DNA of 64,000 nucleotides from IMG/VR virus record IMGVR_UViG_2671180868_000001, positions 2,117 to 66,116 of that record. One strand, 5' to 3'. Position 1 is the first letter of the stretch. Each line of letters opens with the position of its first letter. The notes beneath the pieces are model-generated. The model did no database searches and was not told the origin of the DNA. It saw only the letters and a program-made list of their open reading frames with translations. The stretch comes from a virus (Duplodnaviria; Caudoviricetes). Below, one piece after another: positions 3,033 to 27,634 of the stretch. A program made the translations under genes and the position numbers.

Positions 3033-3034
3033 AT
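3008..3034 (+). repeat. att core, left junction
   Basis: TAGGAATCGTATTCGGTCTTTTTTTAT, identical to 59794-59820. Confidence 0.95.
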
Positions 3035-3056
3035 CTTATTGATTTTAAAAGAATTA

Positions 3057-3107: not shown

Positions 3108-4217
3108 CTAAATCTCAACCCACTCATTTTTACGTGAATCTAGGTATACATTCGTCATTTTCATCGATTTGTGTCCAAGCAATTTTTGTGCAAATTCCTT
3201 ACCGTATTCTGCTTCATATAGCCGCGATGCCAGGCTGCGGATCTCGTGAAAGCTGGGAGGGGATATTTCATAAATCAGATCGGTTGCTTTCAGTGCTTTA
3301 ACAAATGCTTTAGTGAGTGAGTCGGCATTTAATGCCCCCGGTTCTCTGCCTGAATTTTTACTTGGCGAGCTGATGAGATATTCACTTTTACTGTTATTCA
3401 GGCACTTTTCTATAATTTCCCCAACCGTGGTATTCATTATTTCCAGCCGTAATGATAGCGATATCGCAATCTGCATCTTGGTTTTACTCTGGACTATCCA
3501 AAGTTTGCCGTCATGAACATCGCTTCTTTTTAATTGCCGCACATCGTCACGGCGTTGGCCGGTAATCAGTGCCAGAGCCAGGCTGAGTTGAACCCAGTTC
3601 CGTTGTTGGCCAGCAGCCTCATAAATTTTGCAAAAGGCGGCATAGTCAAGTCGCTCCCGCTTAACTTTTGGTGATGGCGTGCGTGTTGCTTCCACTGGAT
3701 TGCTGCTAATTAAACCATCAGCTATTGCTTCGCGAAAAACATCAGACAAAACAGAACGTAGATTTACCGCCATCGAACTTTTACCATTATCGACATAGGT
3801 ATTGATAAAGTCAGCAATATGCTTGGTGGTCACAGTCTCGATCGGCCTCTCTCCAAATTCTTGCTTAATATATCCGATTTGCAGGACTCTCATTTTCATG
3901 GTGTTCTCAGCCAGTTCGCGACGCTTTAATAGTTCTGAATAGCGCTTTAGCCAACTCGCTACGGTATTAATCTCGGCTTTAGCCGCAGGAGTTGGGGCAG
4001 GGGCTTGTAATCGTTCAAGCAGGGCTACTGGCTGAAAATTTGATTCAATATAGTTGTTAGCCTGAATGGCCTGAGAGATGGCATCCCTCCGGGCTATTTG
4101 TCCCAGAGGGATCTCTTTTCCAGTAAGTGGATTTCGCCAGTAATAAGATTTGTAATATCGCCGATATGTCAGATTTTTGGGTAAGTTGGCATCATATCGT
4201 TTTGGCCTTGATGCCAT
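3108..4217 (-). CDS. int: Lambda-type tyrosine integrase
   Basis: Arm-binding N-terminus; TGQRRDD, FHEIR, LLGH and catalytic Y. Confidence 0.97.
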   Translation of the reverse strand: MASRPKRYDANLPKNLTYRRYYKSYYWRNPLTGKEIPLGQIARRDAISQAIQANNYIESNFQPVALLERLQAPAPTPAAKAEINTVASWLKRYSELLKRRELAENTMKMRVLQIGYIKQEFGERPIETVTTKHIADFINTYVDNGKSSMAVNLRSVLSDVFREAIADGLISSNPVEATRTPSPKVKRERLDYAAFCKIYEAAGQQRNWVQLSLALALITGQRRDDVRQLKRSDVHDGKLWIVQSKTKMQIAISLSLRLEIMNTTVGEIIEKCLNNSKSEYLISSPSKNSGREPGALNADSLTKAFVKALKATDLIYEISPPSFHEIRSLASRLYEAEYGKEFAQKLLGHKSMKMTNVYLDSRKNEWVEI

Positions 4218-4461
4218 GATTAATTTTCTCTATCAGTGATGAACTTGTACTGGGGGATGTTTTAAGTATTTCTTTTGCTAGCCGATAACTTTTAGGCTGA
4301 ATATAAATCGCACCTGGCTGCACACGATATTCTCGCCCATGTTTTTCAGGGGCCGGGTAAATATTACCGCCTCGCGCCCAGCGCTGAAGTGTCTGGGGCG
4401 TTGGTTGCTTACTGCGGTAGGTTTCTTCCGCCCATTCTTCTAATGTCAGTAATTTGGTCAT
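4192..4461 (-). CDS. xis: Excisionase
   Basis: LTLEEW...TLQRWARGGNIYPAPEKHGREYRV, lambda Xis-like; overlaps int. Confidence 0.92.
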   Translation of the reverse strand: MTKLLTLEEWAEETYRSKQPTPQTLQRWARGGNIYPAPEKHGREYRVQPGAIYIQPKSYRLAKEILKTSPSTSSSLIEKINHGIKAKTI

Positions 4462-5191
4462 TGGTCTTTCCTCAGTAGGAAAGGGCGCAACGATTCTGCG
4501 CCCTATTATGGTCGTTTGGTCTGGGGTGGTAAGGGGCTATGTTTTTAAGTCGCAATATTTATCCCGTCTCACGATGGGATAAATACTATATATTTTCGTT
4601 TCACACAGATAAAAACGCGAGCAGATTACCTCTATTTTTTGGCTTAAGAACTAGAGTTTGCTGACGTTCTCGATCCATTGATTTAGGGGACGGTCACATG
4701 ATTAATGTAACCAACGTCGTCGAGCATCGATAATCAATTCGCGAGTAGAAGCAGTGGCAGAAAATGATATGTTTAAGCCAATGCAGATTATCGCGGCGTT
4801 TGAAGGGATGGCTAATAGTTGGTCTTAATGGAAGACATCAGCAACAGGGTCCCCGAAAGTTAAGGAGCATGGTTTATCTGCCACGCAACCTAAGCACGGA
4901 TACCTCTATAGATGTTGGCAACTACAAAGTGTCATACGTTCATATGCAAAGCTCCTTCATAGAATTATCTCGTTGTGAATATCTCCGAACAGTACTATCA
5001 TTCTGCTTGCTGGATTTTTGCATCGTAGAAGTAGTCTAAATATGTAGTAATGTTGTGACATTACTAAATGATATTTTCTGCAGCCTTGTATATCGTATTT
5101 TCCTTCTATGTTTATAGGGTTGAGCATAAGTGTTGTTTTTTAATCTAAGTTAAAAAATTACAAACACAGTTAAATTCAAAAAGGAGTACAC

Positions 5192-7512: not shown

Positions 7513-8337
7513 TTAATCGTTGCCAGGGTAATAAAGGTCGTCTGGTGCCGAATCCCACACTAAGAGACTCCCACCGTGATATAGCGCAAGTACAAGCTTT
7601 TCGAAGCGGCTATATGCTTTGATGATTCTTTTGCCAAGTATCTTGTTGTGTTCCAAACTGCCTGAAAACAGTTCATAGACTGGGTGTTCGTCATGTAGGA
7701 TTTGCGCGCCTCTCCATCCATCTACACGCTCAGCGCGAAAACCTAAATAAACATCGCAGTTGTATGCCTTGCTAACTTCCGTTTTATAGCCGCCAGCCGG
7801 TTCAGCGTGCAATCCGACATAAATAAAACCGTCACGGTCATCCTCAATAAGGGATTGAGGACAATCCCAACGTTCTTCGCTGGCTCTCTCACTGTTATCT
7901 TCTACAAACGCCGCCCAGAGATCAGATGCTTTAATGAATTTTGGTATCACTCCCTCTGAAGTGAACTCAGTTATCATTTCATCCATCTTTTTGACTATGC
8001 CGCTTTCGATACCAGCCGTTTCCCATTTTTCACGCATTAATCGGGTTATAAGGCTGTTATAGCGTTCCAGCTCGATGATGTTCTCGACGTTGGTAGGCAG
8101 CGCGGCTTTCATCGCGTTTTTCATGACCTTGCCGAAGTCGCTATATGAGCCGAAAGCGTCATCGATCAGATTCCCGAAGAGTTTTTCAATGCCCTTGTCG
8201 ATAATTTCGAAGGCTTTCGGGCTGTTGGAAAACTCGACGCAACGCTGAGTGAGTAAGGCCGAAAGGGGTAACTCAGTAGGTTGCTGGGATACAGAAAATG
8301 TTGGTGCATCAATCTGGTGAGTTTTATCGTTGGTCAT
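7513..8337 (-). CDS. Hypothetical early phage protein
   Basis: 274-aa ORF in the pL operon; starts in the shared RBS motif. Confidence 0.8.
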   Translation of the reverse strand: MTNDKTHQIDAPTFSVSQQPTELPLSALLTQRCVEFSNSPKAFEIIDKGIEKLFGNLIDDAFGSYSDFGKVMKNAMKAALPTNVENIIELERYNSLITRLMREKWETAGIESGIVKKMDEMITEFTSEGVIPKFIKASDLWAAFVEDNSERASEERWDCPQSLIEDDRDGFIYVGLHAEPAGGYKTEVSKAYNCDVYLGFRAERVDGWRGAQILHDEHPVYELFSGSLEHNKILGKRIIKAYSRFEKLVLALYHGGSLLVWDSAPDDLYYPGND

Positions 8338-8401
8338 TGGTCAGTCCTCAGTCTATTTTTTCGAAATAAATTACCCATACTCATGGGTTTTTCCTCTACA
8401 A

Positions 8402-10010: not shown

Positions 10011-11615
10011 TTACTGCGTGATAGAGAAATAGCGGATCCGGCCAGCTTTTACCGCGTTGTACAGGCGGTTAACTGTTTCAGTAGTAAGCTCAATTCCTGC
10101 CGCCACTAAATCAGCATCAATTTGGGCAATCCAATTAGCTGGCTTGTCTGTTAGTGGCGTATTTACCGACCCGCCCAGTTGCTTAGGAAAGTTAACCGAT
10201 CCCGCAGGGTGTAACGACTGATGTACTGTTGCATCCGTACTTGCGGCGACTGTTTCTGTAGTGGCCACTGGCGCTGCCTGTTGTTGTTTTTTCAATTCAT
10301 CAAGCCGCAATGCTTCCTGCTGTCTGTGCTGTTCCTCAATCTGTTTTTGCCTGGTAATGCGTTGATCAATCATCAGCGCCAGATGTTCGTGCTCAAGGGC
10401 AATTATCTGGTTGATGTCAGCGAACAGATTTTTATAAGCCGGTTCAATATCAGCAAATAGCACTAAGTTGGACTGATATTTCTCACCTAATTGGTTAGCA
10501 GCTATCTTGGCGCGGGCCAGTTCATCGTTGGCTGCACTCTGCAAAGAGGTGAGGGTTTTCTTGCCTTTGATAGCAGTGGCAAAATCAGCCGGGATAGTAG
10601 GTAGAGTGACAATAGCCAACTGTTTATTGATACCGGCAATGTGCTCAGCAAGAGCGGCTTTTACCTTATTCAGTATTTCAAGGCGAATAGCTTCTTTGCG
10701 CAACTTAACGAGTTTTGACAGGTCTAGCCGTTTGTTTCGCATTTCATCGCGCAAGGTATCAATGGTGCGGAAAAGTAGATCAATCTGCTCAGTCTTAGAC
10801 AGTGCCTGCTGTTTAATCAGATCCAGCTCTTTCTCTGCTTTTTCACAAAACTTAACGGTTTCTTCTGCGTCAGCGAAGTCCTGATCGGTCACCAGATTAG
10901 TGTTGATAGATTGAATAAAGGCCAACGCTTGATTCTGGTAAACAGTCAGGTTTGATTCTTTTACCGCGCCCTCTATCTCCACCAATAGGGCAGGGAGGCG
11001 CATTAAGGCTTTACCTTGCGGTATGTCTTTTATCTCAGGGGCTGTGTAACCGTTCAAATCCTGTTCAAATTGCTGCCAACCCGCCATCAAAGCTTCACGG
11101 CGACCAGGTACCGGTAAATACTCCATCCACACAAAGTTATCCTCAGTGCCATCTGATACCACAAAAATGACCTTTTCGGACTCACTCACTAAAAGTTGCT
11201 GTTCTAACTGCCAGTAATACTCTGGCGGCAAGTCTTTATTTTTCACCGCCAGCGCCAGTGTGGCATTCCACATTTTGTGTTCAAACAACACATCTTCCAT
11301 CATGGTCATGCCATCAAAGGAAGCCAACAAATAGCCATCATCATCGATGGCGGTTGCTGGGAATAATTCGGTACCGATCATGGATTCTACGATGACCCGC
11401 GCTGTGGCTTCTTGCGCGTGGCCTTTATCGAACAAGTTGGTTTGTACCCAATCGCTGATTTCCCGTTCCGAGCCGGTGGCCTTCATATTCAGCAATTCAT
11501 CGCGGCGCATTTTACTGGAGGCTGCCATCATTACCGGGGCTTCGCTGGCAGTGAAATGGCGACTGCGCAAGGCGTGCCATTCCGGCGTACCTTGCTGGAC
11601 ATTAATGATTTGCAT
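10011..11615 (-). CDS. YqaJ / lambda-exonuclease family nuclease with long helical tail
   Basis: QGTPEWHALR..FTASE, LLASFDG, FEHK, YYWQLEQQL. Confidence 0.9.
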   Translation of the reverse strand: MQIINVQQGTPEWHALRSRHFTASEAPVMMAASSKMRRDELLNMKATGSEREISDWVQTNLFDKGHAQEATARVIVESMIGTELFPATAIDDDGYLLASFDGMTMMEDVLFEHKMWNATLALAVKNKDLPPEYYWQLEQQLLVSESEKVIFVVSDGTEDNFVWMEYLPVPGRREALMAGWQQFEQDLNGYTAPEIKDIPQGKALMRLPALLVEIEGAVKESNLTVYQNQALAFIQSINTNLVTDQDFADAEETVKFCEKAEKELDLIKQQALSKTEQIDLLFRTIDTLRDEMRNKRLDLSKLVKLRKEAIRLEILNKVKAALAEHIAGINKQLAIVTLPTIPADFATAIKGKKTLTSLQSAANDELARAKIAANQLGEKYQSNLVLFADIEPAYKNLFADINQIIALEHEHLALMIDQRITRQKQIEEQHRQQEALRLDELKKQQQAAPVATTETVAASTDATVHQSLHPAGSVNFPKQLGGSVNTPLTDKPANWIAQIDADLVAAGIELTTETVNRLYNAVKAGRIRYFSITQ

Positions 11616-12447
11616 CTTCTGCCTCCAGATGTTCGATAGTTTTGATTTGTGCCGAGGTGAGGGTGTATTTACTTTCGATGGTGTTAATGATTTGCGCGGC
11701 GGTTTTCTTGCCCTTGTTGATCAGCGTTGTCCAGTCAGCAAGCGCGCGTTGAAATTGTTCCGCGCTGTATTCTGGTAGTGCCTGCGGCTGGCTTGGTTGC
11801 TGGCTGCCTTGGCTGTGTTCTTTACCTTCATTCACATCAAGACTTTTACCTTCCATTTCCTCTGCTGTTGGCTGCTGACCAATTTCCGGCCAACCTTTAC
11901 GCAGTGCCTGCGCTTCGGCGCACTTGGCTAATTGCCCATAAGGCCGCTTTTTCCACATGGCATTGGGTGCTTGGGTATCGCGGCCAGCGGTCGCATAGTT
12001 CTCCAGCCAATATTCCTTCGCACTGAACTCCACGATAGTGCCGTTAGGCATGAGTTTGCTCAGGGTGTATTTGCACCACTGAGGGAAAGTAATTTCTACT
12101 CCGTTAAAAACTTGTGTGAGGTCAGGGCCAAATTCGGGTTCCTGTGCACCTGCATAGTTACCAGAGCGGTCTGCCTGTATGCGATAGAGCCCAACACCTG
12201 GCATCACCACATCACGCATTTCATATTTACCACTTACCGCATCTTTCACGCTCATAGGAACTAAATGAACGGGTTTCATCAGCGGATCTAACTGGCGGGC
12301 GCGGCAATAACTCACCGCCATGATGACTGAATCATCTTTAGCGCCAGGGTAAATACTGTTTTTCAGCGCGTTCCACGTTGGTTCGTCAATATTCAACCCA
12401 ACCACGGCGGGCGGGAGATTACTGGTTGTTACTGCTTGGGTGGTCAT
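11602..12447 (-). CDS. bet: Bet/RecT single-strand annealing protein
   Basis: YCRARQLDP, YRIQADRSG, MWKKRPYGQLAKCAEAQALRK. Confidence 0.92.
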   Translation of the reverse strand: MTTQAVTTSNLPPAVVGLNIDEPTWNALKNSIYPGAKDDSVIMAVSYCRARQLDPLMKPVHLVPMSVKDAVSGKYEMRDVVMPGVGLYRIQADRSGNYAGAQEPEFGPDLTQVFNGVEITFPQWCKYTLSKLMPNGTIVEFSAKEYWLENYATAGRDTQAPNAMWKKRPYGQLAKCAEAQALRKGWPEIGQQPTAEEMEGKSLDVNEGKEHSQGSQQPSQPQALPEYSAEQFQRALADWTTLINKGKKTAAQIINTIESKYTLTSAQIKTIEHLEAEDANH

Positions 12448-12457
12448 TGGTCAGCCC

Positions 12458-12607
12458 TCAGATTTTGACAGCGATAGCCAGAAACATGAACGCGCCTAAA
12501 ACACAGGCGAAGAAGAATTTCAGGCCAGATTGGCGGGGATACAGGTTGAAGTCGTCGCCGGTAACGCGGTGGCGGTATTGGAGTTTCTTGATGAATTCAA
12601 TAGTCAT
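12458..12607 (-). CDS. 49-aa small membrane protein (not in ORF track)
   Basis: MTIEFIKKLQYRHRVTGDDFNLYPRQSGLKFFFACVLGAFMFLAIAVKI; stop lies within the bet RBS motif. Confidence 0.65.
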   Translation of the reverse strand: MTIEFIKKLQYRHRVTGDDFNLYPRQSGLKFFFACVLGAFMFLAIAVKI

Positions 12608-12615
12608 GGTATGCT
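12588..12615 (+). promoter_or_regulatory. Sigma70 promoter with extended -10, convergent with pL
   Basis: TTGATG-16 nt-TATGCT with TG in the extended -10 position. Confidence 0.65.
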
Positions 12616-12620
12616 TTCCC

Positions 12621-12750
12621 ATGGTTGGGTTTGGTCACTCAACCACGCTGATAATAATCCTCGTGGTTATTGTTCAGTCCTCAGTAGGTTTGCGGTTGGT
12701 CCCGCACTCCTGGGATAGCCCCGGCTTAATCGCTGGGGCTTTTCTCTTTT
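12621..12750 (+). ncRNA. Candidate multi-target antisense sRNA against the early-gene RBS motif
   Basis: Promoter, two hairpins with TTGGTC loops, antisense GTGGTTATTGTTCAGTCCTCAG and an intrinsic terminator; G:U pairs favour the + strand. Confidence 0.65.
12717..12750 (+). terminator. Intrinsic terminator of the candidate sRNA
   Basis: AGCCCCGGC-TTAATC-GCTGGGGCT followed by TTTCTCTTTT. Confidence 0.75.
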
Positions 12751-12775
12751 AGGATATGGATAAGTAAGAAAAGGT

Positions 12776-13426
12776 ATGAAAAGACAACTTGTAGTTTTAT
12801 TAGCATCAATTCTTAGTATCCCATCAGCATTTGCTGTAGATATTCCAGCCATGGAAAAGGTAATGCGTGAAGGCATGCAGAACCCGAAAACAGTGGAATA
12901 TCGGTCAATCACTGAAGTAACCAACGCTACCGGCGAAACGTTTGTTTGTGGTGAGGTCCGTATTACAGGGGAAAATAGTCAAGAGGCTGATTTCATTCCC
13001 TTTGCTTATACTCAACACAAAACTATCTACGTGAGTTCAGATCTTTCTAAGAATGAGAAAAGTGAGTATCGTCTGACTGGATGTGAAAGCAAAGAATCAG
13101 AGGCATCTTGGTATAAGACTCTAACGATATTAGATACAAACTGCCTTGCCGGTTTTCAAACACTAAAAGCTTATTTCAGTGAAGGAAAATCAGACGAGCT
13201 TGCTATCGCCGCAGGCGTTAGCGTTTGGGATGATTTCAATAAAAAAATAGGAAAATCTGCTGATGCTGAATTTAATAAATCGGCTTATTACTATTTAAGA
13301 TCGATATTGAATCAGGCTAAGGCTAACCCAGAAATGGGGGCTGAGATTAAAGCAGATCCAATAGCAACAAAGAATGAATTCCTTGCTAATTGCAGAGCAA
13401 TTTTTATTGAAAAGGCTATCAAATAA
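12776..13426 (+). CDS. Exported protein (moron) of unknown function
   Basis: Signal peptide ending AFA; opposite strand to the pL operon; AT-rich. Confidence 0.75.
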   Translation: MKRQLVVLLASILSIPSAFAVDIPAMEKVMREGMQNPKTVEYRSITEVTNATGETFVCGEVRITGENSQEADFIPFAYTQHKTIYVSSDLSKNEKSEYRLTGCESKESEASWYKTLTILDTNCLAGFQTLKAYFSEGKSDELAIAAGVSVWDDFNKKIGKSADAEFNKSAYYYLRSILNQAKANPEMGAEIKADPIATKNEFLANCRAIFIEKAIK

Positions 13427-13444
13427 TTATCGCGATTATTATTC

Positions 13445-13771
13445 CTAGTCTATGAAGGTGCTTTGTGTTGCATCTAACTCCATGGCTCTTTCTGCTTTGG
13501 CAACACGGAGAAATATTTCCTCCTGCACCTCATCCAGATAGAGTTCCATAGCGGTTGTTTCGGTAAGTGCTGCAAGGTAATGGGTACTTGCACCCGCAAT
13601 AAAGCAGCCATTTTTGACAGCGGTTTTAAAAGCGCCGAGCATTTTTGAATGACGGCGTAAAAACTCAATCCTCTTGCCTAATTCCTCTTGCTCATCAGGA
13701 TCCGAAATTAATAGGCGGTCATACTGTTCCAGCGATTGCTCAACCATTCGCTGATAGTTGTATTCATTCAC
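13445..13771 (-). CDS. Possible Gam-like host-nuclease inhibitor (GTG start)
   Basis: GAGGT SD; MNEYNYQ...EQEELG...GAS...EVQEEI resembles lambda Gam by eye; upstream of bet/exo. Confidence 0.5.
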   Translation of the reverse strand: MNEYNYQRMVEQSLEQYDRLLISDPDEQEELGKRIEFLRRHSKMLGAFKTAVKNGCFIAGASTHYLAALTETTAMELYLDEVQEEIFLRVAKAERAMELDATQSTFID

Positions 13772-13834
13772 GATGCACCTCACGGTAAGGAGTGTTGCCG
13801 AAGCCCCTGCGAACAGAGGCAGCGGTAAAGCCAC

Positions 13835-14104
13835 TTATTCGCCGTCTTTCTTTTCGTTAATGCGTTGGAATGGGTAGCGATCTGTATCTGGCTTGATATT
13901 GCGGTAGAAGTGAGAGCCAATTGATTCAGCGCCGGAGAATGCCGCGTAATCATCAGCGGACACGTTTTTGTAGTGATACAGGGCCGCCGGTTCACCTTTC
14001 GACTTAAAACGAATCGCCAGAATGTTGTTAACTGGGTCATGGCCGATGCTGTGGATCTGGGAAGATTCAATCTGCTTCATACTAATTGCTGGTAAATTGC
14101 TCAT
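13835..14104 (-). CDS. KTSC domain protein
   Basis: ESSQIHSIGHD...LYHYKNVS...AESIGSHFYRNIK. Confidence 0.85.
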   Translation of the reverse strand: MSNLPAISMKQIESSQIHSIGHDPVNNILAIRFKSKGEPAALYHYKNVSADDYAAFSGAESIGSHFYRNIKPDTDRYPFQRINEKKDGE

Positions 14105-14122
14105 ATTGGTTCCTTTTAGGTG

Positions 14123-14154
14123 AAAAAAAAGAGCCACAGCCTAAGCTGTAGCTC
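14123..14154 (-). terminator. tL1-like terminator after N
   Basis: GAGCTACAGC-TTAG-GCTGTGGCTC then T8 on the minus strand. Confidence 0.8.
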
Positions 14155-14188
14155 CGATGGTTTATTTTGCTTTCCTGCTAATTAATGC

Positions 14189-14434
14189 TTAACGCACGCC
14201 GCGAGGTAACTTACTGCAACCACGCATCTTTTGGCGGGCAACTGCTGCAATCCGTTTCTCTGGATCTGCTGAAGTTCTGGGCTTGCTGGGTACTGCTGGC
14301 ATATCTGGCATCGGTTTACACCGCACCAAAACTAATACTGCTTTTTCAACTCGGTTACTTTCACGCTTTGCCAGTGCCTGGATATGGGCATTGCGTTTTT
14401 TTGCCATACGCTTTTGACGAGATGTTGTGGCCAT
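14189..14434 (-). CDS. N: N-like early antiterminator
   Basis: Basic N-terminal motif; RVEKAV and RQKMRGCS match lambda N RVESAL and RQKIKGKS. Confidence 0.75.
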   Translation of the reverse strand: MATTSRQKRMAKKRNAHIQALAKRESNRVEKAVLVLVRCKPMPDMPAVPSKPRTSADPEKRIAAVARQKMRGCSKLPRGVR

Positions 14435-14525
14435 TGGTCAGTCCTCAGTTGGTTTTTGCCGGGATATTTATCCACGCCCGGCGCGTGCTATCCTTGCTGT
14501 CACCACAACAAGTAAGGATATCTGT

Positions 14526-15807: not shown

Positions 15808-16479
15808 TTATACTGGTTTTACGTGGCACACCACTGTGCCGATAATCTCACAATTACCGTTTACTTTTAAAAATCTAGCATCAGACGGATAGTCTGGATT
15901 CAATGCTTTAAGATAGCGTTGGTTATCAAGGATTTGTAGCTGTTTAAATGTGGCTTCAGCACTGCCTTCCATACGAGCAATAACATATTTTCCGCTCGGT
16001 GGATCGATTAATTCTGGGTCAACATAAATAATGTCGTCCGGCTCAAATCGAGGCAGCATCGATTCGCCTTCTATGCGTAAAGCGAAACTTTCGGGGCTAC
16101 ATACAACGGGGCAGGGATAATAAACATACTCATCCCGTGGCAGCAGAGTTACTTCAGTAAATGCTCCAGCTTGTACCCAGCTAATCAATGGAACCTCTCT
16201 GGTGAGTATGTCAATCGGCGAGGCGTTATCGATTTTCATAGCGGCCTGATTACTAGCCTCTTTTTCTCCTTTTCCTGAAACCAACCAGTTTGGATTTAAC
16301 TGTAAGGCTTTAGCTAACGCAAACAGATTATCCGCCCGGGGTTTCTGTGTCATCCCAAGCTCAATTTTGCTTATTGCCATACGAGTGATTCCAGCCTTTG
16401 CCGCAAGATCTTCCTGCGTCATGCCTAGTTCCTCGCGCCTTGCCAAAAGGCGTTCACCGAAAGTGCTATATGTATTCAT
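15808..16479 (-). CDS. cI: CI repressor (HTH plus S24 peptidase)
   Basis: N-terminal HTH, VQAG cleavage site, GESM catalytic Ser, TFK Lys. Confidence 0.96.
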   Translation of the reverse strand: MNTYSTFGERLLARREELGMTQEDLAAKAGITRMAISKIELGMTQKPRADNLFALAKALQLNPNWLVSGKGEKEASNQAAMKIDNASPIDILTREVPLISWVQAGAFTEVTLLPRDEYVYYPCPVVCSPESFALRIEGESMLPRFEPDDIIYVDPELIDPPSGKYVIARMEGSAEATFKQLQILDNQRYLKALNPDYPSDARFLKVNGNCEIIGTVVCHVKPV

Positions 16480-16589: not shown

Positions 16590-16856
16590 ATGAATTGCAC
16601 TAAGACCAATTCGCTAAATGAACGCATTAAAGCTGCTGAACAGGTAATTAACCATTTCAGTAGCCCTTATCAGGCGGCGAAAGCCCTTGAGTGCTCATAT
16701 GAAGCAATTAAAACCTATCGTAAACGTGGGCTACCTGAAAAGGTTGCTTTGCTTTGTCATATGTCTACGGACATCCCATACACCTATAACCCGGCCGACT
16801 ATGGCCGTAATCCGGAAAATCTCAGCCTGGTTCTGACCAAACCAGCTCATCAGTAA
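16590..16856 (+). CDS. cro: Cro-like repressor
   Basis: Divergent from cI; HTH YQAAKALECSYEAIKTYRKRGLP. Confidence 0.8.
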   Translation: MNCTKTNSLNERIKAAEQVINHFSSPYQAAKALECSYEAIKTYRKRGLPEKVALLCHMSTDIPYTYNPADYGRNPENLSLVLTKPAHQ

Positions 16857-16873
16857 AGATAGAGGACTGACCA

Positions 16874-17236
16874 ATGACCACAATTTATCAACCTGCCGCT
16901 ATAACGGCAGGGGCTAGGATAGCCTCTGACGTTCGGCGGGAATTGCTATCCCGTAAAAAAGTGGGAAAGAACGGTTTACCGATCCATACCGTGCGTGAAG
17001 ATCAGATTAAGACTCGTTGGACCGAAAGTGAGGCAGTGGCCATAAAAAGCACCGCCAACGCGCTGGAATCAAACCCCGCAGTAGAAACCAATGTGGCCGC
17101 CATTCGTGGTTTTTTGGCGATGTTTGCCGAGGCTCCCGAAATGCTGGCTCACGTTCATGCCGAATTAAAACTAGCCGGGCTGCCGGTACCCGAATGGTTG
17201 CCTGAGCTTCCCATCAACCAGGAGAAATCCCAATGA
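16874..17236 (+). CDS. Regulator in the cII position
   Basis: Position between cro and O; starts in the shared RBS motif. Confidence 0.55.
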   Translation: MTTIYQPAAITAGARIASDVRRELLSRKKVGKNGLPIHTVREDQIKTRWTESEAVAIKSTANALESNPAVETNVAAIRGFLAMFAEAPEMLAHVHAELKLAGLPVPEWLPELPINQEKSQ

Positions 17237-18266: not shown

Positions 18267-19042
18267 GTATGCAGGGTTTAGATGATAAACGTGAATTTGC
18301 AGAAATCATGAAAGCCACTCTGGCGATATACGGCAAAGATGCATCGAAAGCTGTGCTGGAACTCTATTGGAATGCGTTGCTGCCCAACGATATCGACACA
18401 GTACGCCAGGCATTCAGCAATTGGTTGACCGATCCGGATCAGGGCCGTTTCTCACCAAAACCTGCCGATATTATCCGCAATATTCAACATATTGCCGGTA
18501 AACCCGATTGGCTGTCAGCGAATGAGGCGTGGGCATTGGCATTACCGGCGCAAGATGAGGCTAACACTGTGGTCTGGACGAATGAAATTGCCCAAGCCTG
18601 GAATATTGCTCAGCCAATTATGCAGGAAGGTGACAAAGTTGGGGCGCGTATGGCTTTCATCGCAGCCTATGAGCGGCTGACTAAGGCAGCACAAGGGGCA
18701 GGCCGATTACCGGAGTGGTCAGTATCAGAGGGATGGAACAAAGAAACGGTAAAACGCACGGTTGAGCAGGCGGTAACAACAGGACTCCTGCCCAAACCTA
18801 AAGCTGAGAAATATCAGTTATTGCTACCAGACAAAAACAAGCTCGGGGAAGGAGTTCCAACAAAAATTCGTCATTTTTTAGACGAACTGAAAGACAAAAT
18901 TAAACAGGATCAGGAGGAACGAGCAAGGAAATGGCGCGATGAAAGTATCAGGTTACAAGAGTCTCTGGACAGTAAACACCGAGAGTCATTGCAGCAGGCC
19001 GCCGACCACGGTTTGCAAAATAATCAAATTACTGAGGACTGA
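18263..19042 (+). CDS. Replication protein in the P position (helicase loader/inhibitor-like)
   Basis: FSPKPADII, ANEAW, GARMAFIAAYERL motifs; follows O. Confidence 0.65.
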   Translation: MSMQGLDDKREFAEIMKATLAIYGKDASKAVLELYWNALLPNDIDTVRQAFSNWLTDPDQGRFSPKPADIIRNIQHIAGKPDWLSANEAWALALPAQDEANTVVWTNEIAQAWNIAQPIMQEGDKVGARMAFIAAYERLTKAAQGAGRLPEWSVSEGWNKETVKRTVEQAVTTGLLPKPKAEKYQLLLPDKNKLGEGVPTKIRHFLDELKDKIKQDQEERARKWRDESIRLQESLDSKHRESLQQAADHGLQNNQITED

Positions 19043-19045
19043 CCA

Positions 19046-20182
19046 ATGAGCATTAATTTCAAGAACGTGTTGATTTACAAACTATCCCGCGATGTCTCTT
19101 TCGCTGATTTGGAACAGCAACTGGCGCAATTCGCATTCACACCCTGCGGTAGCCAGGATAGGGCAAAAACCGGTTGGATATCGCCCATGGGTAACGAAAG
19201 CGCCGCGCTAGCGCATGTGGCTAACCAGCAAATCCTGATCACATTGCAGTGTGAAAAAAAGGATTTGCCTGCGCCGGTTATCGCCCGTGAGCTGGCGAGT
19301 AAAGTTGAGCGTTTGGAGCAAGAGCAACACCGTAAACTGAAAAAAACAGAAAAAGACTCGCTGAAAGATGAAGTTATCCAGACTCTGCTGCCACGGGCCT
19401 TTAGCAAATACTCTACAACATCCCTCTGGATTAACGCAGGGGCTGGGTTAATCATCATCGATGCCGCTAGCGCGCGAAAAGCTGAAAATGCATTGTCATT
19501 ACTGCGCAAAACCATGGGCTCTCTGCCAGTTATCCCTCTGACACTCAATACCCCGATTGAACTGACGTTAACCGAGTGGTTGCGCTCAGATGCAGCGCCT
19601 GCTGGGTTTGTGCTTCAGGAAGAAGCTGAGCTAAAAGCCGTTTTGGAGCAGGGTGGCATTCTGCGCAGTAAGCACCAAGATTTGGTCACTGACGAGATCC
19701 GTGGGCATATCGCCGCCGGTAAACTGGTGACCAAACTGGCGCTGGAGTGGCAGGGCCGCATTAGCTTCATGTTGTACGACGATGGCAGCCTGAAGAAAGT
19801 GAAATACAGTGCCACGCTGTTGGAGCAAAACGACGATATTGATCGGGAAGATTACGCTCAGCGTTTTGATGCGGACTTTATTCTGATGACGGGTGAACTG
19901 GCAGCGCTCATTGCCCATTTGGTTGATGCGCTGGGTGGCGAGGCAACCAGTAGTTCATGGGTCGATTTGGACGGCGTAGAGCGAGACGATGATGATCGCT
20001 ATCCTGAAGCAGTGGAGTTCATCAAGACGAGGGGGAAAGCTTCAATCTCTGGGCTACAGCGTGAACTCCGCATTGGTTATAACCGTGCTGCCTGGCTGCT
20101 GGAAAGAATGCAGGTGGAAGGCATTGTGTCACAACCCACGCCAGACGGAACCCGCCAAGTGCTGGTCGGGGAGGGCGCGTAA
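19046..20182 (+). CDS. rdgC: RdgC fused to a C-terminal FtsK-gamma domain
   Basis: FKNVLIYKL...FDADFILM, then [31 protein letters not shown]. Confidence 0.9.
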
Positions 20183-23509: not shown

Positions 23510-24153
23510 CAACAGCGCAGCGAACTAAGTCCCCGAGAAAGAAAAAGACTGAGGTGCTGGGCGTCCTGTTACCTGGTGGTGGAATCAAGTACGCCACTGA
23601 TCATGATCGGGAAACTATGAAGGGGGTGCCTGCGGGCACTCCAATCTCAATGAGTCCAATTGGCGACCGGCGCAACCTGAAGCATCACCGTAAATTCTGG
23701 AAATTGTTGGAGCTGGGTTTCTCATATTGGGTACCGGATTGGACCTTTGTTAGTGCGCCAGAGGAATGGATAGCCCATGAGGTGGCTAAAGCTGTGGGTA
23801 GTGCCGCTGGAGATCCAGAACTCTATGAGAATGTTACAAAGTCTATTGCTCAAGCAGTATTAGACAGGGTAATCAGGCAGCGCCAGAAGAGGTTTGATGG
23901 GGAGGCTGTAAAGACTGATGCAGCCTACTTCAACCACGTTATGATCAAGGCCGGATTCTATGACCTGATGCCCAACCCCGAGGGTGGCACATTGAAGCAG
24001 CGCTGGAGTATCGCATTCGTGAATATGGATCAGGGGGCTTTTGACCGTATTTATAAAGGCGTGGCCGGTGTTATCTGGAATGAGACATTAGGCCAGCACT
24101 TTGATAACGAGTATGAAATGGAACAGGCAGTTAACCGACTGCTGGAATACTGA
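23506..24153 (+). CDS. DUF1367-like nin-region protein
   Basis: RNLKHHRKFWKLLELGF.YW and SIAFVNMD. Confidence 0.75.
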   Translation: MTTAQRTKSPRKKKTEVLGVLLPGGGIKYATDHDRETMKGVPAGTPISMSPIGDRRNLKHHRKFWKLLELGFSYWVPDWTFVSAPEEWIAHEVAKAVGSAAGDPELYENVTKSIAQAVLDRVIRQRQKRFDGEAVKTDAAYFNHVMIKAGFYDLMPNPEGGTLKQRWSIAFVNMDQGAFDRIYKGVAGVIWNETLGQHFDNEYEMEQAVNRLLEY

Positions 24154-24163
24154 GGACTGACCA

Positions 24164-24598
24164 ATGAGCGATAATAACGATATTCATGATGATCAAAGTG
24201 ACAATGTATTGGCATTCACCAAGCGATTTAACGAGAACGCTGATATCAAAGAAATGCTGAATTTTGTTAAGGCTGAGCCAGCAGCAAGCCAAAGCCGACG
24301 CTGTACTCATAGTAAAATTTTAGTTGATGATCATCTGCGTCAACTTACTTGCCGCCTGTGTGGTGCTGTAGTGGAAGCATTCGACTGGATTAACTCAGTA
24401 ACGAAAAATGAAACAAAAGTCGATTGGGAACTTAAAGGACTGCGTGGGGAAATTAAGCAACATCGTGAAGGTTTAGAAAAGCTGAAACGTGAAGAGGTTA
24501 ATTGCCGGGCAAGGATTAAGAATGCCGCATTCAAGTTGAATGATATCAATCTCCAGATCAGCAAAGCAGAGAGCGATCTAAGGGATAAAAGTGAGTAA
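24164..24598 (+). CDS. Zn-binding coiled-coil hypothetical protein
   Basis: CTH...CRLC followed by a coiled coil; shared RBS motif. Confidence 0.7.
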   Translation: MSDNNDIHDDQSDNVLAFTKRFNENADIKEMLNFVKAEPAASQSRRCTHSKILVDDHLRQLTCRLCGAVVEAFDWINSVTKNETKVDWELKGLRGEIKQHREGLEKLKREEVNCRARIKNAAFKLNDINLQISKAESDLRDKSE

Positions 24599-26222: not shown

Positions 26223-26316
26223 ACGTTCCATAATTTGCAATTGATTTATTTATTGTTGCGAATTATGGGATGAGCTATAGAATCAGTCTTGTGAATTTAA
26301 AGCACAGGACTGACCA

Positions 26317-27126
26317 ATGACCACTGCAATTGAACAACTTATCAAAATGCACGATCCGCGCTGCGTCAGCATAGAATCGCTGAACATTGGCAGAGGTCGT
26401 GCAGTTCTGACCAAAGACCAGATATTAGGTACTTTTGCTACCTGCCAGCATATACACCCTGTCGGATTCGATATTTTGATGACCAAATACCGTAATGACT
26501 GCAAAGCCGAGCAACGCTTACGAGCTGCAATTAGTGTGTGGCTACATAAGCGATCGCATCCACCTCGAGCCATTGCTGCCTGCCAGTTAGCGCTGAATAT
26601 GGTATTGGATAGAAATCTCCCGGCGCAGGTAGAGCAAATTGCAACTTTACTGCGGCGTTACGGATCTCGGACTGGAATGACCAGAAAAGTCGTTGATGGT
26701 CTACAGCAGCAAATCAAATTGCTGGAAAGAGATAAAGCCCAGGCACTTGATGATGGCACTATCGTATTACTGGCAGACGAAATAAAAGCCCTTCAGTCTA
26801 AAATCAAAACAGAACGCGGAGCATTGCGGGCATGGGCTAATCAGCAGGCATCTATAACGCAGGTATGCCCACGTTGCCATGGTGCCGGTAAAATTCTGCG
26901 ACCTCATCCAGAAACATGCAACGAATGCGGTGGTGGTGGCCGTATACCGCCGACAATGGAACATCTGCGCAAATCCATGGGCATCATAGGGACTGAGATA
27001 CCCGCCGGGGAGTGGGCTGCGCAATATGCGCCGGTGGTTAAAGAATGCATGCAATGGCTATATGTAGAAGAGTCCGAAGCTGCTGATATTCTCAAGCAAC
27101 GAATGAGTGAAGAAATCGGGGATTGA
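26317..27126 (+). CDS. Q: Late antiterminator Q (Zn-finger type)
   Basis: CPRCHGAG...CNECGGGG; position before the late promoter and lysis genes. Confidence 0.75.
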   Translation: MTTAIEQLIKMHDPRCVSIESLNIGRGRAVLTKDQILGTFATCQHIHPVGFDILMTKYRNDCKAEQRLRAAISVWLHKRSHPPRAIAACQLALNMVLDRNLPAQVEQIATLLRRYGSRTGMTRKVVDGLQQQIKLLERDKAQALDDGTIVLLADEIKALQSKIKTERGALRAWANQQASITQVCPRCHGAGKILRPHPETCNECGGGGRIPPTMEHLRKSMGIIGTEIPAGEWAAQYAPVVKECMQWLYVEESEAADILKQRMSEEIGD

Positions 27127-27541: not shown

Positions 27542-27602
27542 TTAATACGCGCTAAATTTCCGAAAGATGCCGGAGTATGCTTAAAAGCTGCTCCGGTTTT
27601 TT
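27530..27602 (+). promoter_or_regulatory. pR'-like late promoter 1 with terminator
   Basis: TTGACT-17-TAAATT-4-AAAGATGC; hairpin CCGGAG...CTCCGG then a T run. Confidence 0.85.
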
Positions 27603-27634
27603 ATTGGTCAGTTCCGGTCAGTTCTGACTATCTC

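What the first reader, a model, noticed from the sequence alone, without database searches (positions are those of the whole stretch)
12588..12750. Unannotated prophage sRNA built to pair with the start sites of many early genes
Seen: a + strand promoter (TTGATG-16-TATGCT with extended TG, 12588-12615) and a terminator (12717-12750) bracket a ~130-nt unit. Hairpin 12622-12645 and hairpin 12691-12706 both have the loop UUGGUC, the complement of GACCAA in the shared RBS motif. Between them, GUGGUUAUUGUUCAGUCCUCAG (12663-12684) complements CUGAGGACUGACCAAUGACCAC with one G:U and one mismatch; it is partly folded into a middle hairpin that exposes the anti-SD CCUC. G:U pairs in hairpin 1 and the terminator become A:C on the minus strand, which favours the + strand RNA. 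Inference: a lysogen-expressed trans-acting RNA that blocks translation of xis, bet, N, cII-like, rdgC and Q together, giving a second, RNA-based immunity layer. Known phage antisense RNAs (lambda OOP, P22 sar, P1 C4, P4 CI) act on one or a few linked targets; I know of no genome-wide RBS-barcode version.
Basis: partly seen in the sequence, partly recalled or inferred. Interest (0 to 1): 0.92.

Follow-up and report, generated by a model that had tools for sequence, protein, structure and literature searches.

The report
Prophage antisense RNA matching shared start-sites
A Yersinia-type lambda-like prophage carries a conserved gene for a folded small RNA of about 128 bases, read backwards in front of its recombination genes; part of it mirrors a start-site tag shared by eight early phage genes, so it may switch those genes off together, but no experiment shows this yet.

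Summary
Promoter-like site, three hairpins, two UUGGUC loops, the 22-nt anti-start-site stretch and the terminator lie at the stated coordinates. The start-site cassette occurs 9 times against 0.32 expected.

Comparative data support a real + strand RNA:
- 40 unique main-family versions exist in Yersinia, Serratia, Pectobacterium, Brenneria and Symbiopectobacterium prophages.
- 12 base pairs show compensatory changes.
- 985 of 1000 pair cells are standard on the + strand against 777 on the minus strand.
- All 40 keep a TATNNT -10 box.

It matches no Rfam family. Bridging variants link it to Salmonella IsrB, an RNA seen on northern blots in the same position before recE/sbcA.

The "anti-RBS" stretch is the mirror of a cassette copy in that leader.

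Action in trans on the other cassettes is plausible:
- For: strict co-occurrence, and a second conserved anti-cassette in the late leader.
- Against: mismatches in three clades, and UUGGUC loops in phages without the cassette.

Earlier agents of this scan reported the same idea on other DNA. No strand-resolved expression data were obtained.

The parts
12588..12615 (+). Promoter-like site of the small RNA: TTGATG, 16 nt, TGnTATGCT. It overlaps the start codon and SD-to-ATG spacer of the minus-strand small ORF.
   Evidence: Sequence. -10 TATNNT in 40 of 40 unique main-family versions. TG at -15/-14 in 36 of 40; the other 4 have TATACT.
12622..12750 (+). Predicted small RNA, about 128 nt. The 5' end is inferred from the -10 box and the 3' end from the terminator.
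   Evidence: Covariance model R1 scores 129.3 bits, E 2.7e-33, at 12619-12749. RNAalifold gives -39.2 on the + strand and -12.4 on the minus strand. 98.5% of pair cells are paired, 12 pairs have compensatory change, and 0 of 500 shuffles reach this.
12622..12645 (+). Stem-loop 1, loop UUGGUC (12631-12636).
   Evidence: Four of 6 modelled pairs change on both sides. The loop is TTGGTC in 22 of 29 aligned versions and TGGTT in the 7 of the Serratia-type clade.
12647..12678 (+). Stem-loop 2. Its 3' arm holds the anti-AUG and anti-spacer part of the anti-cassette.
   Evidence: Minimum-free-energy fold. Consensus helix 2 has 9 pairs, 3 with compensatory change, 96.9% paired.
12663..12684 (+). Anti-cassette: complement of CUGAGGACUGACCAAUGACCAC (20 Watson-Crick pairs, 1 G:U, 1 mismatch). 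It is the mirror of a degenerate cassette copy on the minus strand (12668-12684, ATG changed to ATA). CCUCAGU at 12679-12685 is unpaired in the window's own fold.
   Evidence: Twelve of 29 aligned versions carry the exact complement of GGACTGACCAATG, 7 carry a one-base variant, and 10 carry 1-2 changes.
12691..12706 (+). Stem-loop 3, loop UUGGUC (12696-12701), inside an outer stem 12686-12711.
   Evidence: Loop TTGGTC in 29 of 29 aligned versions. Helices 4 and 5 have 5 pairs with compensatory change. The same loop occurs in the divergent variants and in IsrB hits.
12717..12750 (+). Intrinsic terminator (9-bp stem, then TTTTCTCTTTT). Homology to related prophages ends at about 12750.
   Evidence: The G:U at the seventh pair is G-C in 10 of 29 versions.
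12458..12607 (-). Small ORF of 49 aa with a hydrophobic C-terminal segment (judged by eye). It is the first gene downstream of the RNA's cis target and is followed by recT.
   Evidence: 49-aa hypothetical proteins of Yersinia at 82-94% identity. The family is conserved across clades, 46-55 aa, shared IQYQHR..SHNIH block. No Pfam, PHROG or Atlas family.
12445..12461 (-). Cassette copy at the recT start (recT 11602-12447).
14432..14448 (-). No family was found for it.
8335..8351 (-). Cassette copy at the start of ORF 7513-8337 (phrog_2600, unknown function).
4459..4475 (-). Cassette copy (2 mismatches) at the start of the 89-aa ORF 4192-4461, beside the integrase. The name 'xis-like' rests on position only.
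16860..16876 (+). Cassette copy (2 mismatches) at the start of ORF 16874-17236, just after the cro-like gene.
19032..19048 (+). Cassette copy at the start of ORF 19046-20182 (recombination-associated exonuclease, phrog_724).
24150..24166 (+). Cassette copy at the start of ORF 24164-24598 (phrog_1621).
26303..26319 (+). Cassette copy (2 mismatches) at the start of the Q-like antiterminator gene 26317-27126.
27602..27626 (+). Second, independent anti-cassette in the late leader, between two + strand terminators and ahead of the holin-like ORF. It is the subject of another finding and is listed because it bears on the trans reading.
   Evidence: The equivalent spot in 5 of 5 diverged relatives reads TATTGGT[C/T]AGTCC. 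Three of them continue to a 15-nt complement of GAGGACUGACCAAUG with a closing G:U.

Best explanation
The region 12622-12750 encodes a structured + strand small RNA of about 128 nt. It has its own sigma-70 promoter with an extended -10 box, and an intrinsic terminator. It is a distant, uncatalogued branch of the IsrB-type RNAs of enterobacterial lambdoid prophages, which sit backwards in front of the recombination genes.

It is antisense to the leader of the small-ORF/recT/exonuclease part of the leftward early operon. In this phage lineage that leader holds one copy of a 17-22-nt start-site cassette: stop codon, GAGGA, CUGACCAA, AUG, ACCAC. The same cassette tags about eight early genes, from the excision-side ORF to Q.

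Most likely mechanism (inferred):
- The RNA pairs with the cassette and occludes the Shine-Dalgarno sequence and the start codon.
- It first acts on its own leader. In most relatives that blocks a 6-8-codon mini-ORF whose translation would open the way to the small ORF.
- With lower certainty it also acts in trans on the other cassette-bearing early mRNAs, and so damps the early programme.
- The UUGGUC (YUNR-type) loops could give fast first contact with GACCAA.

Shown here: the gene, its structure, its strand, its distribution, the complementarity and the co-occurrence.
Inferred: transcription in this host, pairing in vivo, repression and timing.

My odds: real RNA 0.9; cis regulation 0.6; multi-gene trans regulation 0.35-0.4.
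For: Structure and strand:
- RNAalifold energy is -39.2 on the + strand and -12.4 on the minus strand.
- 985 of 1000 pair cells are standard on the + strand, 210 of them G:U. Mirrored on the minus strand the figure is 777 of 1000.
- All 29 sequences fold more stably on the + strand.
- 12 of 35 pairs have compensatory change; 0 of 500 shuffles reach the observed score; slid controls give 29-51% paired against 98.5%.

Promoter and terminator:
- TATNNT in 40 of 40 unique versions and TG in 36 of 40.
- Homology to relatives stops at the end of the T-tract.

Distribution:
- 9 genome loci in 6 genera and 63 viral loci match the terminator pattern.
- The RNA is in 3 of 151 sampled genomes of the GTDB family.

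Link to IsrB:
- Variants L263 and L265 score 46.9 and 42.4 bits with my model and 33.7 and 32.0 bits with Rfam isrB, whose gathering score is 35.
- IsrB hits share the UUUGGUC-loop hairpin, the terminator, and the antisense position ahead of a large ORF.
- IsrB-1 and IsrB-2 were detected by northern blot and primer extension, lie between sbcA and its neighbour in a '<- -> <-' arrangement, and are induced by starvation (PMC2330248, passages and Table 1 read).

Trans reading:
- 5-8 exact cassette copies in each of 5 diverged relatives.
- Of the 80 recT loci, the 31 with the RNA hold 51 cassettes and the 49 without it hold none.
- 12 of 12 viral contigs with two or more exact hits in the listed rows carry the RNA.
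- In 151 genomes the exact 14-mer is in all 3 RNA-positive genomes, next to the RNA. It is in 1 of 148 others as a single hit; the reversed control gives 6 single hits.
- In the window the cassette is confined to early genes.
- A second anti-cassette sits in the late leader of the window and of 5 of 5 relatives.

RNA libraries:
- Contigs of three RNA runs from three studies cover 12101 or 12270 to 12749 of a related prophage. This shows presence only, not strand.
Against: - No strand-resolved transcript was seen. The one raw-read run laid 0 reads, and contigs cannot show strand or ends. RNA libraries can also contain DNA.
- In the window clade the anti-cassette has a mismatch and a G:U. In the Serratia-type clade and in L040 it has GGCC where the trans cassettes keep GACC. 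The targets did not change with the RNA.
- UUGGUC loops occur in relatives whose phages have no cassette. This holds for 5 of 5 Citrobacter-clade proviruses, which are at or below control level, and for the IsrB loci. The loops therefore predate the cassette.
- Stem-loop 1 lacks UUGGUC in 7 of 29 versions.
- The consensus fold pairs the anti-SD GUCCU with GGGAU, so access may be limited. That helix never varies, so it is untested.
- A whole-RNA duplex scan does not separate cassette sites (-46) from background (-45).
- Mosaic junctions fall inside the cassette in 4 of 4 compared pairs. Recombination could therefore also spread and keep the cassette.
- Co-occurrence is confounded by shared ancestry, because the RNA and the cassette travel in one phage lineage.
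Confidence: 0.42

Rival explanations
1. A purely cis-acting antisense RNA. It controls only the leader opposite it, that is the small membrane protein and the recombination genes. It could do so by blocking the mini-ORF's ribosome site, by triggering duplex cleavage, or by convergent-transcription interference, in the manner of hok/mok/sok or a type I antitoxin. Its match to the other cassettes is then a by-product of one cassette copy lying in that leader.
For: - The anti-cassette is the mirror of a real cassette copy with an ATG that opens a 6-8-codon mini-ORF in 21 of 29 aligned versions. That ORF ends at the foot of hairpin 1, just before the small ORF's SD.
- The small ORF is conserved and ends in a hydrophobic segment.
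- The RNA and the small ORF move together in front of different downstream genes.
- The anti-cassette drifts by 1-2 bases in three clades while the trans cassettes do not follow.
- The sharp RNA end at 12723 in run X10 could be a cleavage site in an RNA duplex, but its strand is unknown.
Against: - In the window clade the mini-ORF start is lost (ATA), yet the RNA is kept.
- The predicted RNA stops short of the small ORF's own SD and AUG.
- IsrB relatives have no small ORF, so the RNA is not tied to a toxin-like partner.
- No separate promoter for the small ORF was found.
- This reading leaves unexplained why a 17-22-nt cassette is held exact at about eight early genes, and why a second anti-cassette sits in the late leader.
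Confidence: 0.33
2. An IsrB-type Hfq- or ProQ-bound small RNA whose real targets are host mRNAs or other phage transcripts, recognised through the conserved UUGGUC loop. The complementarity to the cassette has no regulatory consequence.
For: - The UUGGUC loop and the terminator module are conserved in relatives without any cassette.
- Rfam names isrB an Hfq-binding RNA.
- IsrB is induced by starvation in Salmonella lysogens (PMC2330248).
- Lambda PreS shows that early-left-operon small RNAs can act on host genes (bioRxiv 10.1101/2024.10.31.621285, section 8 and passages read).
Against: - No host target was sought or found here.
- After the terminator and the loops, the anti-cassette is the best-conserved part of the RNA (invariant columns).
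- The RNA and the cassette co-occur strictly.
Confidence: 0.15
3. The hairpins work on the minus-strand operon transcript, as boxB-like antiterminator sites or other protein-binding sites with GACCAA loops.
For: - On the minus strand the loops read GACCAA, like the cassette spacer.
- A further GACCAA hairpin lies at the end of the cro-like gene (16826-16846), a position like that of nutR.
Against: - 210 G:U pairs become A-C mismatches on the minus strand: 777 against 985 of 1000 cells paired. The consensus energy is -12.4 against -39.2.
- The T-tract and the -10 box are conserved on the + strand.
Confidence: 0.04
4. There is no regulatory RNA. The cassette is a recombination linker at module junctions, and the hairpins and terminator only insulate the recombination module from opposing transcription, for example from the + strand gene 12776-13426.
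For: - Homology breakpoints lie inside the cassette in 4 of 4 compared pairs and at the end of the T-tract.
- The phage encodes RecT and a RecE-like exonuclease. That such enzymes can use short homologies is established knowledge, recalled.
Against: - An insulator needs no conserved promoter, no three covarying hairpins and no invariant loops.
- Direct repeats of the cassette would favour deletions.
- The cassette is confined to early genes.
Confidence: 0.05

Closest known systems
IsrB-1 / IsrB-2 of Salmonella prophages (Rfam RF01386, 'isrB Hfq binding RNA'). This is not the E. coli IsrB/AzuCR, which is a different RNA (PMC12266141, passages read).
   Same: - Own promoter and an intrinsic terminator.
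- Lies backwards ('<- -> <-') just ahead of the recE/sbcA-type recombination gene of a lambdoid prophage (Table 1 of PMC2330248).
- The penultimate hairpin has a UUUGGUC loop.
- Bridging variants score with both models.
   Different: - The Rfam model does not find the window's RNA at E up to 10.
- This RNA is about 40 nt longer, with an extra 5' hairpin and the anti-cassette segment.
- IsrB loci show no cassette and no small ORF.
- No function for IsrB is given in the passages I read.
hok/mok/sok and other type I toxin-antitoxin pairs (features recalled from established literature)
   Same: A small hydrophobic protein gene is preceded by a short leader ORF. The ribosome site of that leader ORF is covered by a short, structured antisense RNA made from a promoter inside the leader or gene start.
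   Different: - Toxicity is unknown.
- No own promoter for the protein gene was found.
- The gene sits inside the phage early operon.
- Relatives of the RNA exist without any small ORF.
- The leader ORF is lost in this window.
P1/P7 c4 antisense RNA (review PMC12197685, passages read)
   Same: A phage RNA whose loop sequences pair with sites around a ribosome-binding site to block translation, and which contributes to immunity.
   Different: - c4 is cut from the same transcript as its targets and acts on linked sites of one operon (recalled).
- This RNA is on the opposite strand with its own promoter.
- Its possible targets are about eight dispersed genes in both early operons.
- There is no Rfam C4 match.
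Start-associated sequences (SAS) of Cluster K mycobacteriophages (PMC3203893, abstract and section 15 passages read)
   Same: - A 13-bp repeat with 11-19 copies lies within a few bases of the start codons of a subset of non-structural genes. It contains the SD core and has conserved positions that cannot pair with 16S rRNA.
- Four of those phages each have a single copy in the opposite orientation.
- The authors left open an RNA or a protein partner.
   Different: - The sequence and the host are unrelated.
- No antisense RNA gene is described there.
- Here two candidate RNA partners can be named.
GcvB-type multi-target small RNAs (recalled; mentioned only in passing in the review read)
   Same: A G/U-rich RNA segment pairs with a C/A-rich element at or just upstream of many ribosome-binding sites, giving a regulon defined by a short shared mRNA motif.
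   Different: - GcvB is a host core-genome RNA acting on transporter genes.
- Here the motif is a phage-private tag with much longer complementarity of 20-22 nt.
P22 sas RNA and lambda OOP (titles in the reference list of PMC12197685 seen; mechanisms recalled)
   Same: Short antisense RNAs made inside or beside the early operons of lambdoid phages that alter translation or stability of the opposite mRNA.
   Different: Each acts on one overlapping gene, and no repeated target motif is involved.

Membership tests
Rfam RF01386 isrB | Scores at or above the gathering score (35 bits) with the Rfam covariance model | tested here: not met
   There is no isrB hit on the RNA at E up to 10. The only hit in the record lies elsewhere (E 0.34). 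The bridging variants L263 and L265 reach 33.7 and 32.0 bits.
Rfam RF01386 isrB | Lies on the opposite strand between a recE/sbcA-type recombination gene and its upstream neighbour in a lambdoid prophage | tested here: met
   RecT and a RecE-like exonuclease lie downstream on the minus strand. The IsrB arrangement is '<- -> <-' with sbcA (PMC2330248 Table 1). IsrB hits lie ahead of a large ORF on the opposite strand.
Rfam RF01386 isrB | Hairpin with a UUUGGUC-type loop followed by an intrinsic terminator | tested here: met
   Loop TTGGTC in 29 of 29 aligned versions. The same loop is in the isrB consensus and in 5 of the 7 IsrB hits; 2 are variant.
Rfam RF01386 isrB | Detected transcript and Hfq binding | not testable with these tools
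   Only contigs of RNA libraries were available, without strand.
Type I toxin-antitoxin (hok/sok-like) | Small hydrophobic protein under about 60 aa | tested here: met
   The ORF has 49 aa with a C-terminal run of about 20 mostly hydrophobic residues. This was judged by eye; no predictor was run.
Type I toxin-antitoxin (hok/sok-like) | Antisense RNA overlapping the leader or leader-ORF ribosome site of the protein's mRNA | tested here: met
   The RNA gene lies opposite positions -15 to about -143 of the small ORF and covers the mini-ORF start in 21 of 29 versions.
Type I toxin-antitoxin (hok/sok-like) | Own promoter for the protein's mRNA | tested here: inconclusive
   The consensus scan found 0 promoter-like sites in 11500-14500 on either strand. 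It also missed the RNA's own promoter.
Type I toxin-antitoxin (hok/sok-like) | The protein is toxic and the RNA neutralises it | not testable with these tools
   No family or annotation exists for the protein. IsrB relatives lack the ORF.
P1/P7 c4-type antisense RNA | Match to the Rfam C4 model | tested here: not met
   Not among the hits at gathering score or at E up to 10.
P1/P7 c4-type antisense RNA | Processed from the same transcript as its target sites | tested here: not met
   The RNA is on the strand opposite to the operon, with its own -10 box. The c4 feature itself is recalled.
Lambda N / nut boxB sites | Hairpins fold on the operon (minus) strand | tested here: not met
   777 against 985 of 1000 cells paired, and consensus energy -12.4 against -39.2.
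Start-associated sequences (Cluster K type) | A conserved repeat of 13 bp or more, directly at the start codons of a subset of non-structural genes, going beyond what 16S pairing explains | tested here: met
   Nine copies against 0.32 expected, all in the early region, and 5-8 exact copies in each of 5 relatives. This is a likeness in kind only; the sequence is unrelated to the SAS consensus.

The most novel reading that the evidence does not exclude
These prophages run a private translational code. About eight early genes, from excision through recombination and the first genes of both early operons to Q, carry one 17-22-nt start-site tag. The phage also makes two separate anti-tag RNAs.
- The first is the IsrB-like antisense RNA described here. 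It comes from a constitutive-looking promoter and would mute leaky or superinfecting early mRNAs.
- The second is a single-stranded anti-tag between the two terminators of the late leader. Its abundance would rise when Q acts, and it would then shut off early translation, Q's own included.

This would be a genome-wide, RNA-based temporal switch and a second immunity layer. It would also give a function to the orphan IsrB family.
Probability: 0.33. Interest if true: 0.88.

Novelty: new variant of a known kind. Interest (0 to 1): 0.72.

Why it matters
Temporal control in lambdoid phages is taught as transcriptional: repressors, antiterminators and a few single-target antisense RNAs. A phage-private start-site tag read by one or two small RNAs would add a translational layer acting on many early genes at once. 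It would also suggest a function for IsrB, a Salmonella prophage RNA detected in 2008 for which the passages I read give no role.

It would offer a testable answer to what repeated start-associated motifs in phage genomes are for. That question was left open for Cluster K mycobacteriophages (PMC3203893). It could also explain some homo-immunity or exclusion between related prophages.

Even the conservative reading is useful for annotation. This is a widespread, structured RNA gene in prophages of at least six enterobacterial genera, and the current Rfam models miss it.

Tried and rejected
- Similarity searches of the region against cultured phages and complete E. coli genomes found nothing. 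I tried window 12400-12800 and the divergent variant L263. The plasmid collection was not searched.
- Rfam at gathering score gave only SraC/SdsR at 2891-3036. At E up to 10 it gave only chance-level hits with E above 1.
- RNA data:
  - The raw-read run X21 laid 0 reads, which is no test.
  - Runs X2, X6 and X10 are contigs and give no strand, start or level.
  - In X10 a depth-82 tip runs from 12723 into an Illumina adapter, against depth 11 for the path that continues. I could not assign this end to a strand or a mechanism. I do not count it for or against.
- A duplex-energy scan of the whole RNA against the window did not discriminate: cassette sites -46, best unrelated sites -45. No accessibility-aware prediction was run.
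- The small protein has no Pfam or PHROG family, only hypothetical Yersinia proteins as relatives, and no Atlas hit of 0.9 or more. No structure was predicted and no complex job was sent.
I examined only one of those records (G010), which has no RNA. The rest may be chance, or may be cassette carriers without the RNA.
- Literature:
  - Six sequence strings gave 0 papers.
  - Concept searches gave no description of this RNA or of a phage RNA aimed at a repeated start-site tag.
  - The small-RNA lists of Y. enterocolitica (PMC6478967) are in supplements that I could not open and may already list this transcript.
- Considered and dropped:
  - A 5' leader or riboswitch of the + strand gene 12776-13426. 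Homology ends at the terminator and the right flank varies.
  - N-boxB sites, because of the strand test.
- The weak model hit at 4412-4513 was not pursued.
Full report
**Setting.** The window is a lambdoid prophage held as a virus record.
- An integrase lies at 3108-4217 (minus strand), next to the host SraC/SdsR locus at 2891-3036.
- A CI-like repressor lies at 15808-16479 (minus) and a cro-like gene at 16590-16856 (plus).
- The leftward early operon on the minus strand runs as follows: the 81-aa ORF 14189-14434, a KTSC-domain ORF, ORF 13445-13834, then a + strand insert 12776-13426.
- After the insert comes the region in question, then a small ORF, recT (11602-12447), a RecE-like exonuclease (10011-11615) and a PmgS-like gene.

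**Observation.** The cassette CTGAGGNCTGACCAATG has 9 matches at up to 3 mismatches against 0.32 expected, and 0 of 100 shuffles reach 9. Eight of them stand at the starts of early ORFs on the coding strand: 4459, 8335, 12445 and 14432 on the minus strand, and 16860, 19032, 24150 and 26303 on the plus strand. None lies beyond 26.3 kb, although the window runs to 64 kb. The ninth is the minus-strand copy inside the candidate RNA (12668-12684), with ATG changed to ATA and GACCAA changed to GAACAA. So the 'anti-RBS' stretch is the mirror image of one more, decayed, cassette copy.

**Relatives.**
- A search with RecT gave 80 viral loci. Thirty of them matched the region in blastn and 31 hold the terminator pattern.
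- In the near relatives the whole region is 87-100% identical. In loci whose RecT is only 65-71% identical, the part 12664-12751 is still recognisable.
- Homology ends at about 12750, the end of the T-tract. What lies to the right differs between phages.
- A pattern made from the terminator found 9 genome loci: Yersinia alsatica, Y. similis, Serratia quinivorans, Citrobacter sp., Pectobacterium betavasculorum, three Brenneria and a Symbiopectobacterium MAG. It also found 63 viral loci.
- Together with the window and the earlier loci this made 103 instances and 50 unique 190-nt versions. Forty are main family. Seven are a Citrobacter-type variant. Three are an unrelated use of a like terminator after a + strand ORF.

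**Structure and strand.** I aligned 29 distinct versions. These are the 31 trimmed unique versions, with the window put in place of its identical copy L081 and two near-duplicates left out.
- RNAalifold predicts stem-loop 1, stem-loop 2, a long-range helix GUCCU/GGGAU enclosing stem-loop 3, and the terminator. The energy is -39.2 kcal/mol.
- Pair counts: 98.5% of 1000 cells are paired, 12 of 35 pairs have changes on both sides, 0 of 500 shuffles reach the observed values, and slid controls give 29-51% paired.
- The long-range helix and most of the terminator never vary, so they are untested. The terminator was also part of the search pattern for most loci.
- The reverse complement folds far worse: consensus -12.4, and the mirrored structure gives 777 against 985 of 1000 standard cells. 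This is because 210 G:U cells become A-C. All 29 single sequences are more stable on the + strand. The structure was derived on the + strand, which favours it, but the minus strand's own best consensus is also poor.

**Promoter.** The -10 hexamer is TATNNT in 40 of 40 unique main-family versions. TG stands at -15/-14 in 36 of 40. The four without TG, where the small ORF starts with GTG, have TATACT, which is closer to consensus. This box overlaps the spacer between the SD and the start codon of the small ORF on the other strand. The seven Citrobacter-type versions have a TATATT box instead (read).

**What lies opposite.**
- On the minus strand the RNA gene is the leader of a small ORF. Sources annotate it as a 49-aa hypothetical protein of Yersinia, 82-94% identical.
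- Its relatives across clades are 46-55 aa. They share an IQYQHR..SHNIH block and mostly end in a hydrophobic segment. No family is known.
- In 21 of 29 aligned versions the cassette copy in the leader has a true ATG. It opens a mini-ORF of 6-8 codons, of the MT..ISS type, that ends at the foot of hairpin 1. In L136 it runs in frame into the small ORF.
- In one relative (L141) the minimum-energy fold of the leader pairs the small ORF's SD with a stretch just before the mini-ORF's SD. This is a single fold and is only suggestive.
- This layout is like hok/mok/sok. But the eight window-clade versions have lost the mini-ORF start, and the predicted RNA ends about 15 nt before the small ORF's AUG.

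**Kinship with IsrB.**
- Rfam finds nothing on the RNA.
- My model R1 found divergent versions in two further proviruses, at 46.9 and 42.4 bits. They have new stems and a different terminator, but the same UUUGGUC loops and an anti-cassette (GUCAUUGGUUAGUCCUU).
- Rfam isrB scores these two at 33.7 and 32.0 bits (E 0.006 and 0.013), just under its gathering score of 35.
- True isrB hits occur in 6 of 151 sampled genomes. They share the hairpin with the UUUGGUC loop, the CCCGCUUCGGCGGG terminator and an extended -10 box. They lie antisense before a large ORF. R1 touches one of them weakly (12.9 bits, E 0.018).
- Padalon-Brauch et al. (PMC2330248, passages and Table 1 read) detected IsrB-1 and IsrB-2 (88 and 94 nt) by northern blot and primer extension. 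They placed them between sbcA and the neighbouring gene in a '<- -> <-' arrangement and found them strongly induced by starvation in minimal medium. They noted overlap with flanking genes as cis-antisense.
I tested it as described.
- I conclude that the window's RNA is a distant, longer branch of an IsrB-like group. It is not a member by Rfam's own threshold.

**Evidence for action in trans.**
- Each of five diverged relatives' records holds 5-8 exact AGG.CTG.CCAATG sites on the coding strands of both early arms.
- Among the 80 RecT loci, the 31 with the RNA hold 51 cassettes. The 49 without it hold none, although many of those encode RecT at 69-73% identity.
- All 12 viral contigs that show two or more exact 15-mer hits in the listed rows carry the RNA: 10 by pattern and 2 by model.
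- In 151 genomes of the GTDB family, the RNA is in 3. The exact 14-mer is in those 3 (3, 1 and 4 copies, beside the RNA) and once in one other genome. The reversed control gives 6 single hits.
- The cassette is conserved beyond what a ribosome site needs. It includes the upstream stop codon, the spacer and, in 5 of 8 window copies, ACCA after the ATG.
- A second anti-cassette, not opposite any gene start, lies between two terminators of the late leader. In the window it is at 27602-27626, in altered form. In 5 of 5 relatives the same spot reads TATTGGT[C/T]AGTCC, and in three of them the match runs on as a 15-nt complement of the cassette. This lead also came from a note on this window.

**Evidence against action in trans.**
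- The RNA's anti-cassette is exact in only 12 of 29 versions. In the Serratia-type clade and in L040 it reads GGCC while that phage's other cassettes keep GACC. The window clade has two deviations. The targets did not follow the RNA.
- The Citrobacter-type proviruses have no cassette: 5 of 5 are at or below control level, and the same holds for the loci. Their RNA lacks stem-loop 1 and the anti-cassette, yet it keeps UUGGUC in stem-loop 3 and even in the terminator loop. IsrB loci likewise lack the cassette. The loop is therefore older than the cassette.
- Loss of the anti-cassette where the cassette is absent fits co-evolution, but it is a single event.
- Mosaic junctions fall inside the cassette in 4 of 4 pairs compared. 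Recombination at the cassette is therefore real and could help to maintain it.
- All co-occurrence is within one phage lineage.

**Expression.** Contigs of three RNA libraries from three studies cover the region in a related prophage. They cannot show strand or ends, and the one raw-read run laid nothing. One sharp end at 12723 remains unexplained.

**Literature.** Literature searches found no paper describing this RNA or a phage RNA aimed at a repeated start-site tag. The nearest concepts are these:
- IsrB, whose function is not given in the passages I read.
- c4 of P1/P7.
- Lambda PreS, which is sense-oriented, lytic and has host targets.
- The start-associated sequences of Cluster K mycobacteriophages, whose partner was left open.

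**Verdict.**
- The + strand RNA is very probably real (0.9).
- It most likely represses translation by pairing with the cassette in its own leader (0.6).
- It may do so at the other tagged early genes as well (0.35-0.4).
- It is a new, longer variant of a known but functionally orphan prophage RNA type.
- The tag and anti-tag logic would be new if experiments confirm it.
- Earlier agents of this scan reached similar readings on other DNA.

Noticed in passing
window 27560-27680: The late leader has two tandem + strand terminators with a single-stranded anti-cassette between them (UAUUGGUCAGUUCCGGUCAGUUC). In 5 of 5 diverged relatives the same spot reads TATTGGT[C/T]AGTCC. In three of them it continues to a 15-nt complement of the early-gene cassette. 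Flanks are conserved from the putative late promoter to the second terminator.
   Followed up: partly
window 12723: In RNA run X10 a contig tip of depth 82 runs from 12723 straight into an Illumina adapter, while the path that continues has depth 11. This is a sharp RNA end inside the 5' arm of the terminator stem. Its strand and cause are unknown.
   Followed up: no
L083, L099, L102, L111, L119, L121, L128, L138, L139: These loci carry a Citrobacter-type variant of the RNA. Only stem-loop 3 and the terminator are shared, both with UUGGUC loops. The 5' half is different and lies opposite the leader of a 74-75-aa ORF with a hydrophobic C-terminus. That ORF is followed by another ORF (MQEP...), which I did not run through any family search. 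A conserved ..CCCCTGACCAAGG.. element lies about 1 kb away on the operon strand.
   Followed up: partly
window 12440-12470 and loci L085, L089, L090, L095, L096, L106, L113, L122: Related prophages are identical up to the cassette and diverge inside or right after it, with different genes downstream: recT, MTNKINF.., MTFHDSQ.. and MAKAKV... The cassette therefore marks mosaic junctions in 4 of 4 pairs.
   Followed up: partly
window 4412-4513 (+): A weak hit of the RNA model (19.9 bits, E 7e-4) lies opposite the cassette of the excision-side ORF. It consists of an anti-cassette followed by a G+C-rich hairpin. It may be chance, or a terminator of the minus strand.
   Followed up: no
window 16826-16846 (+): The hairpin CUGGUU-CUGACC-AACCAG contains GACCAA and lies at the end of the cro-like gene, just before the cassette of the next ORF. 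The position resembles that of nutR in lambda (the comparison is recalled).
   Followed up: no
window 12776-13426 (+): A 216-aa ORF (phrog_36625, unknown function) starts 25 nt after the RNA's terminator, on the same strand and against the early operon. There is hardly room for a promoter of its own, so it may depend on read-through from the RNA's promoter.
   Followed up: no
window 2891-3036 and 3108-4217: The host small-RNA pair SraC/RyeA and SdsR/RyeB (170 and 110 bits) lies directly beside the prophage integrase. The attachment site is therefore next to this locus.
   Followed up: no
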